From sequence record PZ445429.1: a DNA stretch of 64,000 nt. One strand, given 5' to 3'. The DNA is from a phage. Under the pieces are notes generated by a model. That model saw only the letters and a program-made list of their open reading frames with translations. It was not told the origin of the DNA and made no database searches. The translations under genes were made by a program, and so were the position numbers. Of this stretch, positions 34,192-48,281 are shown in pieces; position 1 is the stretch's first letter; every line of letters starts with the position of its first letter.

Positions 34192-34362
34192 ATGAAATCA
34201 GTTGTAATTATTGGTGTTAATACTCGTGGTATCCGTACTACGAAAACAGTTAAAACTACTAACGTTGCTGAAATTACTACAAACCCTAAGAAGTTTGATT
34301 TCGCCAAAGTCTCAGCAGTTATGACAGAACAATCTTTTAACCAAGCACTGGGAATTAAATAA
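34192..34362 (+). CDS. small hypothetical protein (56 aa)
   Basis: Below track cutoff; N25-type promoter upstream, RBS GAGAGGAAG; stop overlaps next ATG. Confidence 0.4.
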   Translation: MKSVVIIGVNTRGIRTTKTVKTTNVAEITTNPKKFDFAKVSAVMTEQSFNQALGIK

Positions 34363-34805
34363 TGGAAGAGAATATTCTAGATGTTTTGCGTAGGGCTTTG
34401 CAGGAATCTAAGGTTGATGGTTCTGATAAAGAAGTAGCTAAAAGCTACCAGACCATAATCGGAGATCTTCAGCGTGTTGATAAAGACTTCATTACTTCTG
34501 AACAGTTTGTATCTTATCTAAAAGCTCAACTGAAAAGCATTAATCAGACGAAAGCTAAACTTCACGGTCAAGACCTCGATAATTATAGCTTGCAGTCTGC
34601 TCAGTATGAATATATACTGAACAAATGGTTACAGCAGTATTTGCCTCCTCAGCTATCTGATTCTGAGATTCGCAAATACTTTGCAGAATTAGTTAAGTTG
34701 AACCCTGGGATTACAAAAGGTATGCTGATGAAAGCGATTAAGGAAGAGTTTCCTGGTCGTTACGACGGTGGCATTGCTGCTCAGGTTGCTGGCGAATTTA
34801 ATTAA
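34362..34805 (+). CDS. GatB/YqeY-domain protein
   Basis: 147 aa with YqeY-like composition. Confidence 0.6.
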   Translation: MEENILDVLRRALQESKVDGSDKEVAKSYQTIIGDLQRVDKDFITSEQFVSYLKAQLKSINQTKAKLHGQDLDNYSLQSAQYEYILNKWLQQYLPPQLSDSEIRKYFAELVKLNPGITKGMLMKAIKEEFPGRYDGGIAAQVAGEFN

Positions 34806-35331: not shown

Positions 35332-35959
35332 TAATAGTGGGGTGCCGAAACCACTTATGTAACAACACTGCCGTCCTAGTATAATAGGTATTATTAGGGC
35401 TTCACCGCCTGAAGATGTGGGTTCGAGTCCCACGGTCGGAAAGAGTTGGATAACTGGTGCTTCTAATGGCGAAGCAATCGCAGGCAGTTGCGCACTGCCA
35501 AAACCACGCGGTAGTTGGTTCCAGGCTAACCAACCACTCTTGAAAAGTATATACTATGGTTTTGCTTGTTCAAGAAGCTTCGCATCGAAAATCGGAGGTG
35601 CGATTTTATCCGACCGCGTGGAGGACGTCTCTCCGTTAAGTGACGAAAAGTGGGACGATTCAGGTAGAGCTGGATATGGAACACCTATACATATGCGGAG
35701 TGCGCACAAAGCATATTGCGGTGGTACTAAACGAAATTAGGAGTCATGACCTGCACAAGTTTAGTATGTCATAACCGATGTACATTCAGTACAAAAACCA
35801 CTGAAGCTAAGATAGATAGTCACCTTGACTTAAACTGGAAGATATTGTCTGACGGAAGGGCTGCAGAGCTTAATCTGAGGGGGCTGACCCTACCTACCGT
35901 CGGGTATCTTTAAGAGCTTTTATAAGAGTTCTTAAAAATACCTAACAAAAGGAATCAAT
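35332..35959 (+). ncRNA. ORF-poor GC-rich structured region downstream of an HNH gene
   Basis: ~630 nt; perfect T-arm-like hairpin GTGGG-TTCGAGT-CCCAC at 35417-35433 without matching acceptor; only a doubtful GTG-start ORF. Confidence 0.3.
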
Positions 35960-42462: not shown

Positions 42463-42539
42463 GGGGGTGTAATCGAATTGGCATAGGTACTGGACTTAAA
42501 ATTCAGGTTTTGTGGGTTCGAATCCCACCACCCCTACCA
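42463..42539 (+). tRNA. tRNA with TAA anticodon (Leu-type) but class-I short variable arm
   Basis: Acceptor GGGGGTG/CACCCCT, T-arm GTGGG-TTCGAAT-CCCAC, loop CTTAAAA, 5-nt variable region, A73, CCA. Confidence 0.6.
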
Positions 42540-43453: not shown

Positions 43454-43534
43454 GGGGGATTGGCTCAGTGGCGACGGCGCCTGGCTGTAGACCGGGTATA
43501 TCACGCGGAGGTTCGAGTCCTCCATCCCCCACCA
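43454..43534 (+). tRNA. tRNA-Tyr (GTA)
   Basis: Acceptor GGGGGAT/ATCCCCC, T-arm GGAGG-TTCGAGT-CCTCC, loop CTGTAGA, 10-nt variable arm, CCA. Confidence 0.7.
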
Positions 43535-43703: not shown

Positions 43704-43778
43704 GCACCTTTAGCTGAGATGGATTAGCGCTTGCCTGAAGAGCTTGAGAGGTTGGATCGTTACCAACGGGGTGCACCA
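43704..43778 (+). tRNA. tRNA-Phe-like (GAA)
   Basis: Acceptor GCACCTT/GGGGTGC, D-stem GCTG/TAGC, loop CTGAAGA; two U-U mismatches in anticodon stem, non-canonical T-loop ATCGTTA. Confidence 0.5.
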
Positions 43779-44343: not shown

Positions 44344-44531
44344 AAATGTTAGTTAAATTTAAGTGTTGTGGTTCTGAACATATTTTCACTCGTTATAGAG
44401 AGTTTAAGATGTGTGAGTGTGGTAAGTCAGGCTATGATGCTGGAGATGGCTTTTATGCTAGATCTTTAGGACATTCTAAAGATCTAGAGTTTACTAATCT
44501 CGAAAAGCAAGATAAATCGACCGTTGGCTGA
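44340..44531 (+). CDS. small Cys-rich zinc-ribbon-like protein
   Basis: 63 aa, KCCGSEH...CECG; 3' end overlaps tRNA start by 14 nt. Confidence 0.45.
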   Translation: MKMLVKFKCCGSEHIFTRYREFKMCECGKSGYDAGDGFYARSLGHSKDLEFTNLEKQDKSTVG

Positions 44532-44593
44532 ATGGCTTAGGCGGAGGCCTGCAAAACCTCCTTATGTGAGTTCGAATCTCATGCGGTCGTCCA
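44518..44593 (+). tRNA. tRNA-Cys (GCA)
   Basis: Acceptor CGACCGT/GCGGTCG, T-loop TTCGAAT, loop CTGCAAA, CCA. Confidence 0.65.
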
Positions 44594-44599
44594 AATTTA

Positions 44600-44685
44600 G
44601 GGCCGTTGGCTGAATGGTTTAAGCGCCGGACTGTTAATCCGTATCCGCAAGGATAAAGTAGGTTCGACTCCTACACGGCCCGCCA
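44600..44685 (+). tRNA. tRNA-Asn-type (GTT) with unusually long variable region
   Basis: Acceptor GGGCCGT/ACGGCCC, anticodon arm CCGGA-CTGTTAA-TCCGT, 15-nt variable region with GCAA-loop hairpin, G73, CCA. Confidence 0.6.
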
Positions 44686-44712: not shown

Positions 44713-44898
44713 ATGACAACTCGTGCAATTGCTCGACTAGAAGCTGATCGTGATAATCTGATTAATAATATTAAGGTTCGTGGTAATATTATTAAGGCTC
44801 TGAAAGCTGAACTTCTTGAAGAACTTCAAGGTCAAGTAGAGCGTCGTGAAGCTCTAAAAGAGGTTGAGGAAGCTATCGAAAAACTCAAGGCTGAATAA
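44713..44898 (+). CDS. hypothetical coiled-coil protein
   Basis: 61-aa ORF with RBS GAGGAAATAG. Confidence 0.45.
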   Translation: MTTRAIARLEADRDNLINNIKVRGNIIKALKAELLEELQGQVERREALKEVEEAIEKLKAE

Positions 44899-44901
44899 AT
44901 T

Positions 44902-45483
44902 ATGCACGGAATATCCTTACCCATTCCAGGGTTTGAGGAGTACTTAGTAAGTTTGGATGGGTTAGTATTTAGTATCAAATCAAACAAAATACTAACCCCA
45001 ATAACCAGTAATTACGGATACTTATCTATACGTCTCCATAAAAATGGTCAACAGAGAAATACCGGTGTACATAGGATTTTAGCATGTGCATTTAAGAAAT
45101 TACCAAGTCTAGACTCTGAACTAGAAGTTGACCATATTAACACAGACATTACTTATTGGGGTCTTAATAACTTACAAGTGCTCACAAAAGAGCAGCATCT
45201 AGAAAAGACTTTAAAAGACAAAGGATTTAGTAAACTAAACCATGATAATTGTTGTAAGGATTGTGGTAAAGCTATTTCTTTAAAAGCTGAAAAATGTCAG
45301 GAGTGCTCTTCACATAAACCAAAAGATATCTCTATAACTAAAGAAATAATCGAGGTTACAGTAAGAGAGCTAGGCTGGTCAGGTGCAGGGAGAAAGTTAA
45401 GTTATTCAGATAATGGGTTGCGTAAAAGATACACTTCTTTAGGAGGCAATCCTAAAGAACTTAAAAAGTTAAAGGTACTATAG
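44902..45483 (+). CDS. HNH homing endonuclease inside the tRNA cluster
   Basis: 193 aa; HNH core EVDHINTD...NNLQVLTKEQH plus zinc ribbon CCKDCG...CQEC; stop overlaps tRNA start. Confidence 0.7.
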   Translation: MHGISLPIPGFEEYLVSLDGLVFSIKSNKILTPITSNYGYLSIRLHKNGQQRNTGVHRILACAFKKLPSLDSELEVDHINTDITYWGLNNLQVLTKEQHLEKTLKDKGFSKLNHDNCCKDCGKAISLKAEKCQECSSHKPKDISITKEIIEVTVRELGWSGAGRKLSYSDNGLRKRYTSLGGNPKELKKLKVL

Positions 45484-46788: not shown

Positions 46789-47251
46789 TAAAGTTTTAGC
46801 TGCCTTAAACCTTCCTGATAACTTCATTATAGATGATAAGCTCATAAGAGCTTATATGAGCAAATATAACGAAATTTCGGGTAAAGAAGGTAAGTTAAAA
46901 ACTTCAGAGTTTAGATTCTGTTATCGAATGGCAGCCTTAAATCTCTTAAAGTATAAAAGGGAGCATAAAATACCTATAACGGAAGGTTTTGTATATGTAA
47001 TTGGTAATCCAGCATGGCCAGGCATGTATAAAATAGGTATGACTATAGATGTGAATGAGAGGTTAGCAAGTTATCAAACTTATTCACCTAATAGAGACTA
47101 CAAGCTATACCATTTCAGATTTTCGTCGGATAAAAGACGTACAGAGAAAGAATTACATAATCTTCTTAAAGATTATAGAGTATCTGGAGAATGGTTTGAA
47201 GTACCTGTACTAGATGCTTTTAAATTATTAGTAGAAAAATTGGATTGCTAG
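46778..47251 (+). CDS. T5orf172/GIY-YIG-like domain protein (putative endonuclease)
   Basis: 157 aa; GFVYVIGNPAWPGMYKIGMTIDVNERL; stop overlaps tRNA. Confidence 0.65.
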   Translation: MLINKVLAALNLPDNFIIDDKLIRAYMSKYNEISGKEGKLKTSEFRFCYRMAALNLLKYKREHKIPITEGFVYVIGNPAWPGMYKIGMTIDVNERLASYQTYSPNRDYKLYHFRFSSDKRRTEKELHNLLKDYRVSGEWFEVPVLDAFKLLVEKLDC

Positions 47252-47319
47252 CTCAACTGGATAAGAGTAGCGGACCTTTAATCCGTCAGTTCTGGGTTCG
47301 AATCCCAGGCAATCCACCA
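47242..47319 (+). tRNA. tRNA-Lys (TTT)
   Basis: Acceptor GGATTGC/GCAATCC, loop CCTTTAA, T-arm CTGGG-TTCGAAT-CCCAG, CCA; 5' end overlaps upstream stop codon. Confidence 0.7.
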
Positions 47320-48200: not shown

Positions 48201-48281
48201 GGGGATGTGGCGAAATTGGCAGACGCGCTAGATTTAGGTTCTAGTCTTCGGGTGTGGGTTCGAGTCCCTCCATCCCTACCA
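48201..48281 (+). tRNA. tRNA-Leu (TAG), type II
   Basis: Acceptor GGGGATG/CATCCCT, D-arm TGGCGAAATTGGCAGACGCG, anticodon arm CTAGA-TTTAGGT-TCTAG, extended variable arm, CCA. Confidence 0.75.

What the first reader, a model, noticed from the sequence alone, without database searches (positions are those of the whole stretch)
44600..44685. tRNA-Asn-type anticodon arm joined to a 15-nt variable region
The anticodon arm CCGGA-CTGTTAA-TCCGT is the tRNA-Asn consensus and the discriminator is G, but a 15-nt insertion with its own GCAA-loop hairpin separates it from the T-arm, giving a type-II-like 86-nt gene. This is an unusual architecture for Asn and could alter identity or processing.
Basis: seen in the sequence. 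Interest (0 to 1): 0.45.

Follow-up and report, generated by a model that had tools for sequence, protein, structure and literature searches.

The report
Phage asparagine tRNA with extra arm
This is a real, conserved asparagine tRNA gene of a T5-like phage that carries the long extra arm normally found only on leucine, serine and tyrosine tRNAs. That build is common in phages and almost absent from bacteria, and its purpose is still unknown.

Summary
Window 44600-44685 (+) is an 86-nt tRNA-Asn(GUU) gene in the 28-tRNA cluster of a T5-like phage. It has a 3-bp D stem, a host-identical anticodon stem-loop, G73, an encoded CCA and a 15-nt variable region (ATCC-GCAA-GGAT-AAA) that forms a capped hairpin.

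It is not a one-off or a pseudogene. About 590 GenBank phage genomes from three unrelated families carry homologues that cover at least 80% of the gene, so including the arm. A motif scan of viral contigs gave more than 100 further distinct long-arm variants.

Across 107 distinct sequences the arm is a 3-4 bp stem with compensatory changes. It is mostly capped by GNRA and followed by 3-4 unpaired bases, and G73 is kept in 104.

The same motif found only 37 places in 185,579 bacterial and archaeal species genomes, several of them inside dense tRNA arrays. It found none in 5,426 E. coli genomes.

It is most likely a working Asn tRNA charged by host AsnRS. The arm's role is unproven. Escape from host tRNA-cutting defences is my leading guess, and a neutral legacy of a class II scaffold is the main rival. 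I found no paper describing this architecture.

The parts
44600..44685 (+). Whole tRNA-Asn(GUU) gene, 86 nt including the encoded CCA
   Evidence: ARAGORN. Rfam RF00005, 58.5 bits. Annotated tRNA-Asn in near-identical phages.
44600..44606 (+). Acceptor stem 5' strand GGGCCGT, pairing with 44675-44681 (ACGGCCC). G1-C72, unlike the host's U1-A72.
   Evidence: All 7 pairs covary in alignment A1. Host sequence.
44609..44624 (+). D arm: 3-bp stem GCT/AGC with the 10-nt loop GAATGGTTTA (class-II style). Identical to the D arm of the Phapecoctavirus ESCO13 tRNA-Asn.
   Evidence: D-stem pairs 11-24 and 12-23 covary.
44626..44642 (+). Anticodon arm CCGGA-CTGTTAA-TCCGT, anticodon GTT at 44633-44635. Positions 28-45 are identical to the E. 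coli tRNA-Asn, including the U36-A-A-U-C|C41 site that PARIS AriB cuts in the host tRNA.
   Evidence: AriB site from PMC12409363.
44643..44657 (+). 15-nt variable region: hairpin ATCC-GCAA-GGAT (44643-44654, GNRA loop at 44647-44650), then unpaired AAA (44655-44657)
   Evidence: In A1 all 4 arm pairs show changes on both sides and 100% of cells pair. Family-wide hairpin and GNRA excess over shuffles.
44658..44674 (+). T arm GTAGG-TTCGACT-CCTAC
   Evidence: 3 of 5 pairs covary.
44682..44685 (+). Discriminator G73, then the encoded CCA
   Evidence: G73 in 104 of 107 family members and CCA encoded in 60.
44518..44593 (+). tRNA-Cys(GCA) 6 nt upstream, probably co-transcribed. It has the same 3-bp D stem style and shares a 15-nt run (CCGTTGGCTGAATGG) with the 5' part of tRNA-Asn.
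   Evidence: The Cys-Asn order is conserved in T5-like phages.

Best explanation
The gene encodes a working elongator tRNA-Asn built on a class-II-type body: a 3-bp D stem, an enlarged D loop and a capped variable-arm hairpin.

Proposed steps, all inferred:
1. It is transcribed with the neighbouring tRNA-Cys.
2. It is matured with its encoded CCA.
3. Host AsnRS charges it with asparagine through the GUU anticodon and G73.
4. It reads AAC and AAU during infection, supplementing or replacing the host tRNA-Asn.

What the comparisons show is that the gene is intact, that the class-II build is conserved by compensatory change, and that the build is strongly enriched in phages.

For the arm itself I infer a purpose. 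Its anticodon stem-loop is kept identical to the host's, and the extra arm and altered D arm make the phage tRNA structurally unlike the host tRNA-Asn. Host defence nucleases that dock on the anticodon stem and elbow of tRNA-Asn might then bind or cut it poorly. PARIS AriB is an example: it cuts E. coli tRNA-Asn between positions 40 and 41 and is modelled to contact the D loop. The arm sprouts three bases from that cut site.

My confidence is about 0.85 that this is a functional Asn-decoding tRNA. It is about 0.3-0.35 that the arm exists to evade defence nucleases.
For: Real tRNA.

Conserved build:
- 591 GenBank phage records cover at least 80% of the gene. They come from Demerecviridae, Straboviridae and Stephanstirmvirinae.
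Pooled with the other loci, it gave 107 distinct long-arm tRNA-Asn sequences.
- Arm helix: 4 of 4 pairs have double changes.
- 96 of 107 have a hairpin of at least 3 bp, against 60.6 +/- 4.6 in shuffles. 62 are GNRA-capped, against 1.2.
- Two class-II alleles sit in identical flanks and differ by compensatory changes.

Asn identity:
- GUU plus G73 is the bacterial Asn identity set (PMC9976931). G73 is kept in 104 of 107.
- The arm has 3-4 bp plus 3-4 unpaired 3' bases. tRNA-Ser has 5-7 bp plus 1.
- Long-arm Thr, Cys, Trp, His and Gly tRNAs in phages keep the discriminator expected from their own anticodon rather than G73.

Phage enrichment:
- 37 stretches in 185,579 species genomes, several in arrays of 10-36 tRNAs.
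- None in 5,426 E. coli genomes.
- About 1 in 10 viral tRNA-Asn genes with this anticodon arm have the long arm.

Defence link:
- AriB cleaves E. coli tRNA-Asn at 40|41. T5 tRNA-Lys, Thr and Asn together neutralise PARIS. AriB is modelled to contact the D loop at positions 16-17 (PMC12409363).
- T5's own class-I tRNA-Asn diverges in the anticodon stem instead, so T5-like phages show two different ways of differing from the host tRNA.
- Some T5-like contigs carry an 87-nt long-arm tRNA-Thr(UGU).
- In T4-like phages the long-arm Asn gene follows tRNA-Lys(UUU). In Phapecoctavirus it is followed by tRNA-Thr(UGU).
Against: - No expression, charging or cleavage data exist for any long-arm allele. 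The PARIS experiments used T5's class-I allele.
- The window allele keeps the exact AriB cut-site sequence and the CGG/CCG pair in the anticodon stem. Any protection would therefore have to be purely steric.
- Subclass IIb synthetases approach tRNA from the variable-loop side (my own knowledge of the AspRS-tRNA complex). A long arm could hinder AsnRS.
- tRNA-Lys, the prime AriB target, never has a long arm in my sample (0 of 113). Isotypes not known to be nuclease targets do (Cys, Trp, Gly).
- The family spans phages of many hosts, so one E. coli defence system cannot explain it.
Confidence: 0.5

Rival explanations
1. Neutral legacy. Long-arm tRNA-Asn genes descend from a class-II tRNA scaffold (Tyr, Leu or Ser type) that acquired an Asn anticodon arm and G73. 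Alternatively they belong to an old phage tRNA lineage spread by exchange between phages. The arm is kept only because the class-II core needs it to fold, and it gives no specific benefit.
For: - The whole core is class-II-like, not just an inserted hairpin: a 3-bp D stem and large D loops that resemble Ser, Leu or Tyr D arms in different sub-lineages.
- The arm geometry equals that of bacterial-type tRNA-Tyr, with 3-4 bp and 2-3 unpaired bases. Tyr GUA differs from Asn GUU by one base.
- GNRA caps are equally common on tRNA-Ser arms in the same loci (56 of 99), so the cap is generic.
- The window allele is a mosaic of parts seen in other enterobacterial phages.
Against: - The nearest-neighbour search with the anticodon arm masked gave no consistent donor isotype: Ser 25, Leu 21, Cys 10, Tyr 9, all with low scores.
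- A neutral legacy does not explain the near absence of the build from cellular genomes.
- In this same phage the canonical class-II Leu and Tyr tRNAs have lost their arms, so arms are evidently dispensable and can evolve.
Confidence: 0.3
2. Handle for a phage or host factor. The arm is a docking site for a protein, for example a modification enzyme, a repair ligase or kinase, or the small YqeY-like protein encoded upstream of the tRNA cluster. That protein would mark, protect or preferentially use the phage tRNA.
For: - The hairpin architecture is conserved and ends in a stable tetraloop.
- The window encodes a weak YqeY-like ORF at 34362-34805 (25.4 bits). It sits where T5 has T5.081, annotated 'tRNA amidotransferase'; I did not align the two.
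- YqeY-type domains bind tRNA in GatB (my own knowledge).
Against: - The stem sequence is free to vary (48 different strands) and the loop is a generic GNRA, which argues against sequence-specific recognition.
- T5 has the YqeY-like gene but a class-I tRNA-Asn.
- The family occurs in unrelated phages with no shared partner identified.
Confidence: 0.08
3. Serine-accepting mistranslator. Host SerRS ignores the anticodon and reads a long variable arm, G73 and G1-C72/G2-C71. It would charge this tRNA with serine, so that AAC and AAU are partly read as Ser.
For: The window allele has a long arm, G73, G1-C72, G2-C71 and C11-G24. The review lists the variable arm, G73 and the first acceptor pairs as E. 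coli Ser determinants (PMC9976931).
Against: - The arm is short (4 bp) with 3 unpaired 3' bases. tRNA-Ser in the same data has 5-7 bp and 1 unpaired base, and E. coli SerRS reads the tertiary shape.
- Most family members have U1-A72, the normal bacterial Asn pair. Those with G1 often have A2 or U2.
- The anticodon stem-loop is held to the Asn consensus.
- Other long-arm isotypes keep non-G discriminators.
- Proteome-wide Asn-to-Ser errors would be costly for a gene kept in hundreds of phages.
Confidence: 0.06
4. Not a translating tRNA. It is a decoy or inhibitor that soaks up tRNA-directed nucleases, or a decaying pseudogene.
For: - PMC12409363 raises the idea that over-expressed viral tRNAs may inhibit AriB by competition.
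- C27/U43 is a mismatch.
- T5-like clusters do contain tRNA-like remnants, such as rna3 and the Bas34 chimera.
Against: - All helices are intact and maintained by compensatory change. The T loop, the D-loop GG, G73 and the encoded CCA are kept.
- The anticodon loop is invariant. That is expected for decoding but not needed for a pseudogene.
Confidence: 0.05

Closest known systems
E. coli / Salmonella host tRNA-Asn(GUU), class I, 76 nt
   Same: Anticodon GUU and loop CUGUUAA. Positions 28-45 are identical (18 nt). G73 and CCA are present.
   Different: The host has U1-A72, a 4-bp D stem, a 5-nt variable loop (AUGUC) and G27.U43. The phage gene has G1-C72, a 3-bp D stem with a larger loop, a 15-nt variable region with a hairpin, and C27/U43. 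There is no BLAST match between them at E 1e-3.
Phage T5 tRNA-Asn(GUU) (T5t17), shown with T5 tRNA-Lys and tRNA-Thr to neutralise PARIS (PMC12409363)
   Same: Same position in the cluster, after tRNA-Cys. Same anticodon, G73 and encoded CCA. Phage-encoded substitute for a host tRNA that a defence nuclease cuts.
   Different: The T5 gene is class I (78 nt, 4-bp D stem, short variable loop) and differs from the host in the anticodon stem, which contains mismatches. The window gene keeps the host anticodon stem and differs in the D arm and variable arm. The experimental evidence applies to the T5 allele only.
Bacterial class II tRNAs, especially tRNA-Tyr(GUA)
   Same: 3-bp D stem, large D loop, and a variable arm of 3-4 bp with 2-3 unpaired 3' bases. 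The Tyr anticodon differs by one base.
   Different: Tyr and Leu tRNAs carry A73 (76 of 79 and 106 of 106 in my sample), which is required by TyrRS and LeuRS. This gene has G73 and an Asn anticodon arm. No sequence-level derivation from Tyr was detectable.
Non-canonical long-arm tRNAs: nematode nev-tRNAs and bacterial allo-tRNAs (the latter reviewed in PMC7609411)
   Same: A class-II variable arm combined with an anticodon of an amino acid that normally uses class I tRNAs.
   Different: Those are charged according to the arm or acceptor (Leu, Ser or Ala) and not the anticodon. Allo-tRNAs also have 8/4 or 9/3 acceptor/T stems (and my own knowledge). This gene has the standard 7/5 stems and retains the full Asn identity set, so it is expected to be read faithfully as Asn.

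Membership tests
tRNA (Rfam RF00005) | Cloverleaf with four helices, D-loop GG, T-loop TTCRA, score above the gathering threshold | tested here: met
   58.5 bits against a threshold of 29. ARAGORN cloverleaf. The minimum-energy fold is the cloverleaf.
tRNA-Asn isoacceptor (bacterial) | Anticodon GUU and discriminator G73, the identity set for AsnRS | tested here: met
   GTT at 44633-44635 and G at 44682. Identity set from PMC9976931. G73 in 104 of 107 relatives.
tRNA-Asn isoacceptor (bacterial) | Class I body: 4-bp D stem and 4-5 nt variable loop | tested here: not met
   3-bp D stem and a 15-nt variable region with a hairpin. The host gene has a 5-nt loop.
tRNA-Asn isoacceptor (bacterial) | U1-A72 first pair, typical of bacterial tRNA-Asn and used by the GatCAB route | tested here: not met
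   G1-C72 in the window and in 34 of 107 relatives; U1-A72 in 70 of 107. Enterobacteria charge tRNA-Asn directly with AsnRS, so the pair is probably not required there (my own knowledge).
tRNA-Asn isoacceptor (bacterial) | Actually aminoacylated with asparagine | not testable with these tools
   Needs in vitro charging or acid-gel and mass-spectrometry analysis.
Class II (type II) tRNA | Variable region longer than 10 nt that forms its own stem-loop, with a 3-bp D stem | tested here: met
   15 nt, with a 4-bp stem, GCAA loop and AAA. The stem covaries.
Class II (type II) tRNA | Isotype is Leu, Ser, bacterial Tyr or Sec | tested here: not met
   The anticodon is GTT (Asn).
tRNA-Ser (SerRS substrate) | Long arm of Ser-type length and orientation: 5-7 bp with a single unpaired base before the T stem | tested here: not met
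   4 bp plus 3 unpaired bases. In phage tRNA-Ser, 69 of 99 have 5-7 bp and 73 of 99 have 1 unpaired base.
tRNA-Ser (SerRS substrate) | G73 with G1-C72 and G2-C71 | tested here: met
   Present in the window allele. Not conserved across the family.
allo-tRNA | 8/4 or 9/3 acceptor/T-stem arrangement | tested here: not met
   Standard 7-bp acceptor stem and 5-bp T stem.
PARIS-evading phage tRNA variants (T5 type) | Substitutions at or around the AriB cut site (positions 39-41) relative to the host tRNA | tested here: not met
   Positions 28-45 are identical to the host tRNA-Asn. T5's allele does differ there.
PARIS-evading phage tRNA variants (T5 type) | Resistance to AriB cleavage and rescue of infection | not testable with these tools
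   Data exist only for the T5 class-I allele. The Bas34 gene is a broken chimera and is uninformative.

The most novel reading that the evidence does not exclude
The variable-arm hairpin (0-1 nt, 3-4 bp, GNRA loop, 3-4 nt) is a portable 'armour' module. Phages would graft it onto normally class-I tRNAs: Asn most often, but also Thr, Cys, Trp, Gly and His. The module would keep those tRNAs readable by the host synthetase and ribosome while blocking defence nucleases that dock on the anticodon stem and elbow, such as Toprim nucleases of the PARIS AriB and OLD type. That would be a second, structural route of tRNA counter-defence beside the known anticodon-loop and anticodon-stem point mutations.
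Probability: 0.25. Interest if true: 0.85.

Novelty: new variant of a known kind. Interest (0 to 1): 0.6.

Why it matters
Textbook tRNA biology reserves the long variable arm for Leu, Ser, bacterial Tyr and Sec. Here an Asn tRNA with a full class-II body is maintained in hundreds of sequenced phages of three families and in many uncultured phages. It is nearly absent from cells.

If it is charged by AsnRS, a subclass IIb synthetase tolerates a long arm. That matters for tRNA identity rules and for designing orthogonal or tagged tRNAs.

If the arm protects against tRNA-cutting immunity, it adds a new structural counter-defence strategy. It would also explain part of why phages carry their own copies of tRNAs the host already has.

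It also matters for annotation. Isotype-specific models may mislabel these genes: one record calls it tRNA-Asx, and a neighbouring gene in another record is marked tRNA-Pseudo.

Tried and rejected
1. Origin from tRNA-Tyr, Ser or Leu. I ran a nearest-neighbour comparison of the 109 long-arm Asn sequences ARAGORN called (anticodon arm masked) against 1,942 other phage tRNAs. It gave low scores and mixed isotypes, so it is inconclusive.

2. Family-wide alignment from a covariance model. Model R1 also pulled in Ser, Leu, Tyr and other tRNAs, and the resulting alignment A2 mixes isotypes. I did not use it for pair counts. I used A1 and my own parsing with shuffles instead.

3. The published Bas34 result as a test of the shield idea. 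Bas34 is PARIS-sensitive despite carrying its own tRNA-Asn. Bas34 is phage SelmaRatti, and its 'tRNA-Asn' is a deletion chimera with a broken acceptor stem. The result says nothing about long arms.

4. I first assumed the PARIS experiments concerned this architecture. T5's own gene is class I, so they do not.

5. Literature. Nine successful full-text searches (one further call failed on a term under 3 characters) with combinations of tRNA-Asn, long variable arm, V-arm, class or type II, and phage found no description of a class-II tRNA-Asn. The phage-tRNA defence papers I checked never use the words 'variable arm'. Subscription-only literature, including older T5 tRNA sequencing papers, was not searchable.

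6. Codon supply. Asn codons make up 5.2% of the long ORFs in the window. That may justify carrying a tRNA-Asn gene but says nothing about the arm.

7. Promoter and terminator scan around the gene: nothing above the shuffle expectation.

Full report
**What is there.** The window comes from a T5-like phage. The 700 bases around the finding are 90-96% identical to many Salmonella and Escherichia Demerecviridae genomes. ARAGORN finds 28 tRNA genes between 35.3 and 51.0 kb, all on the + strand, and Rfam's tRNA model confirms them.

The finding is the ninth of these, tRNA-Asn(gtt) at 44600-44685. It is 86 nt long and scores 58.5 bits against a gathering score of 29. Rfam places a 12-nt insertion in the variable region.

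The cloverleaf drawn by ARAGORN is also the RNAfold minimum-energy structure. Its parts are:
- acceptor GGGCCGT/ACGGCCC;
- a D stem of only 3 bp (GCT/AGC) with a 10-nt loop;
- anticodon arm CCGGA-CTGTTAA-TCCGT;
- a 15-nt variable region, ATCC-GCAA-GGAT followed by AAA;
- T arm GTAGG-TTCGACT-CCTAC;
- discriminator G and an encoded CCA.

One correction applies: the variable region is 15 nt in all, 10 more than the host's 5.

**Comparison with the host tRNA.** The E. coli tRNA-Asn is a 76-nt class I tRNA. It is present at a median of four copies in 5,425 of 5,426 complete genomes. The phage gene is identical to it over 18 consecutive bases, positions 28-45, covering most of the anticodon stem and the whole loop. 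Everywhere else it differs: G1-C72 instead of U1-A72, a 3-bp instead of a 4-bp D stem, a different D loop, and the extra arm. A sensitive BLAST of the phage gene against all E. coli genomes finds nothing at E 1e-3.

**It is one member of a large family.**
- A sensitive search of 50,697 GenBank phage records finds 608 with a match, and 591 of these cover at least 80% of the gene.
- Matches come from T5-like phages (Demerecviridae), T4-like phages of Klebsiella, Enterobacter, Serratia and Citrobacter (Straboviridae), and Phapecoctavirus (Stephanstirmvirinae).
- I fetched six representatives. ARAGORN gives 83-86-nt tRNA-Asn(gtt) genes in all of them.
- Nearly all of those are 81-91-nt tRNA-Asn genes with very diverse acceptor and D arms, usually inside tRNA clusters.

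**The arm is under selection.** I pooled 107 distinct long-arm sequences.
- The variable region is 11-20 nt, most often 15.
- 96 form a hairpin of at least 3 bp, against 60.6 +/- 4.6 (maximum 72) after shuffling.
- 62 are capped by a GNRA tetraloop, against 1.2 after shuffling.
- 48 different stem strands occur.
- G73 is kept in 104. The first pair is U1-A72 in 70 and G1-C72 in 34.

In a gap-free alignment of 21 sequences with the same arm length, all four arm pairs show changes on both sides and 100% of cells pair. The other helices behave likewise. That seed set was chosen by predicted fold, which biases pairing but not the diversity of pair types.

Within T5-like phages two class-II alleles sit in otherwise identical DNA. 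The window and vB_EcoS-26175I carry one; PMBT26 and Stitch carry the other. The differences are confined to the tRNA body and are compensatory in the D stem, at pair 28-42 and in the arm.

**Phage enrichment.**
- The long-arm pattern matched only 37 stretches in one genome from each of 185,579 bacterial and archaeal species, none from Enterobacteriaceae.
- About 25 of these are true long-arm genes.
- Several lie in arrays of 10-36 tRNAs within 8 kb, for example in Micromonospora and Verrucosispora. I take that to point to prophages or mobile elements, which is an inference.
- In viral contigs, an arm-blind scan for the same anticodon arm returned 120 stretches. About 12-13 were long-arm and 97 short.
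- Many of the short ones are host tRNA-Asn copies at prophage ends.
- So roughly one viral tRNA-Asn in ten has the arm, and about a quarter among loci with five or more tRNAs.

**Which amino acid?**
- The bacterial Asn identity set is the anticodon plus G73 (PMC9976931). Both are present here and across the family.
- LeuRS and TyrRS need A73, which is absent.
- SerRS is the only plausible competitor. It reads a long arm, G73 and the first acceptor pairs, all of which the window allele has.
- The geometry does not fit tRNA-Ser, though. In the same set of phage loci, tRNA-Ser arms have 5-7 bp and one unpaired base before the T stem. The Asn arms have 3-4 bp and 3-4 unpaired bases, like tRNA-Tyr.
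- G1 and G2 are not conserved in the family.
- Phage contigs also contain long-arm versions of Thr, Cys, Trp, His, Gly and Ile tRNAs. Thr, Cys and Trp share the Asn-type arm geometry; His and Gly were not parsed.
- Their discriminators follow their own anticodon (Thr A or U, Cys U, Trp G, His C, Gly U) rather than the G73 of Ser.

I therefore read the arm as an add-on that leaves identity unchanged, and this gene as a true Asn acceptor. That is an inference, with a confidence of about 0.75-0.85.

**What is the arm for?** This is not shown. The most relevant published work is on PARIS.
- T5's own Lys, Thr and Asn tRNAs together neutralise it.
- A structural model has the AriB dimer touching both the cut site and D-loop positions 16-17 (PMC12409363).
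- That paper never mentions the variable arm. T5's own tRNA-Asn is class I, 78 nt, with an aberrant anticodon stem.

T5-like phages thus have two kinds of tRNA-Asn that differ from the host in complementary ways. One has a mutated anticodon stem. The other has a host-identical stem with a class-II D arm and an extra arm emerging three bases from the cut site. That pattern prompts the shield hypothesis, as does an 87-nt long-arm tRNA-Thr(UGU) in some T5-like contigs. So does the neighbourhood: in T4-likes the gene follows tRNA-Lys(UUU), and in Phapecoctavirus it is followed by tRNA-Thr(UGU).

Several observations count against it:
- the cut-site sequence is unchanged;
- tRNA-Lys never has the arm (0 of 113);
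- the family extends far beyond E. coli phages;
- a long arm might hamper AsnRS.

One apparent counter-example dissolved. Bas34 is PARIS-sensitive despite 'encoding tRNA-Asn'. Bas34 is phage SelmaRatti, and its gene is a deletion fusion: a long-arm Asn 5' part joined to the 3' end of tRNA-fMet, with an unpaired acceptor stem.

The main rival is that the arm is a neutral legacy of a class-II scaffold. My attempt to identify a donor isotype was inconclusive.

**Novelty.** The gene is annotated as tRNA-Asn in hundreds of records, so the gene itself is known. I could not find its class-II build, its breadth across phages or its scarcity in cells described in 8 million full-text papers. Reviews of tRNA identity and of non-canonical tRNAs do not mention it either. 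Older subscription literature was out of reach. I rate it a new variant of a known kind, of moderate to high interest. It is a clear, testable exception to the class I / class II rule, with a possible link to phage counter-defence.

Noticed in passing
IMG/VR loci L044-L271 (e.g. L055 and L126 for Thr; L048, L085-L087 for Cys; L048, L057, L090 for Trp): Class-II-like versions (80 nt or more) of normally class-I tRNAs also occur in phage contigs: Thr(TGT) 10/98, Cys 11/69, Trp 6/73, Ile 20/103, Gly 5/103, His 2/71, Glu 5/95, Met 7/148, and none for Lys (0/113) or Arg (0/158). Long-arm Thr, Cys and Trp share the Asn-type arm (3 bp, 4-nt loop, 3-4 unpaired bases); His and Gly arms were not parsed. 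All five keep their own discriminators. Two T5-like contigs carry an 87-nt tRNA-Thr(TGT).
   Followed up: partly
window 42463-42539, 48201-48281, 43454-43534: The canonical class-II isoacceptors of this phage have shortened variable regions. tRNA-Leu(taa) is 77 nt with a 5-nt loop, tRNA-Leu(tag) is 81 nt with 8 nt, and tRNA-Tyr(gta) is 81 nt with 9 nt and no called hairpin. All keep a 3-bp D stem and A73. So in one genome Leu and Tyr have lost arms while Asn carries one.
   Followed up: no
window 47242-47319: tRNA-Lys(ttt) has the anticodon loop CCTTTAA, that is C instead of the near-universal U at position 33. Its 3' anticodon-stem strand is TCCGT. This may be an anticodon-loop change of the kind proposed to evade anticodon nucleases.
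   Followed up: no
window 44685/44686 junction; L273 (PMBT26) and L001 (Stitch): Compared with PMBT26 and Stitch, the window and vB_EcoS-26175I lack 76 nt immediately after tRNA-Asn. In T5 that stretch is annotated 'rna3, putative tRNA-like RNA'. The deletion goes with the 86-nt tRNA-Asn allele in the four phages compared.
   Followed up: partly
L275 12605-12681 (Escherichia phage SelmaRatti = Bas34, MZ501103): The annotated tRNA-Asn is a deletion chimera. The 5' part is a Stitch-type long-arm tRNA-Asn up to the T arm, and it is fused to the 3' end of tRNA-fMet. The acceptor stem no longer pairs. This probably explains why Bas34 needs T5 tRNA-Asn in trans in the published PARIS experiments.
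   Followed up: yes
window 44518-44593 versus 44600-44685: The adjacent tRNA-Cys and tRNA-Asn share a 15-nt identical run (CCGTTGGCTGAATGG, positions 4-18) and the same 3-bp D stem style. The Stitch-type Asn allele does not share it. The D arm of the window allele is identical to that of Phapecoctavirus ESCO13, so the allele looks like a mosaic made by exchange between tRNA genes.
   Followed up: partly
window 35369-35442 and 43704-43775: ARAGORN calls a 'tRNA-SeC(tca)' with several mismatches (Rfam tRNA 33 bits). T5 has a similar degenerate tRNA-like sequence within the span annotated RNAX. Rfam also finds a tRNA at 43704-43775 (33.4 bits) that ARAGORN misses. It lies where T5 has its annotated tRNA-Trp, after tRNA-Glu.
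   Followed up: no
window 34362-34805 (+): A 147-aa ORF gives a weak YqeY-like match (25.4 bits, cut-off 27). By its position upstream of the tRNA cluster it appears to correspond to T5.081, which is annotated 'tRNA amidotransferase'; I did not align the two. YqeY-type domains bind tRNA in GatB, so it may be a tRNA-binding phage protein.
   Followed up: partly
window 44713-44898 and 44902-45483 (+): Directly downstream of tRNA-Asn lie a 61-aa DUF7337 protein (103.7 bits) and a 193-aa NUMOD4/HNH homing endonuclease. Homing endonucleases are scattered through the tRNA cluster and could drive the allele exchange seen at tRNA-Asn.
   Followed up: no
L010, L011, L015, L039 (Verrucosispora / Micromonospora), L019, L041: The few cellular long-arm tRNA-Asn genes lie in very dense tRNA arrays (21-36 tRNAs within 8 kb), some with a second, class-I tRNA-Asn nearby. 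I did not check whether these arrays are prophages or other mobile elements.
   Followed up: no
L058, L061, L062, L064, L089, L111, L150: tRNA-Ile(tat) genes of 91-96 nt recur in phage contigs. Their long variable region contains a conserved AGATTA-like loop, a different kind of arm from the GNRA hairpin.
   Followed up: no
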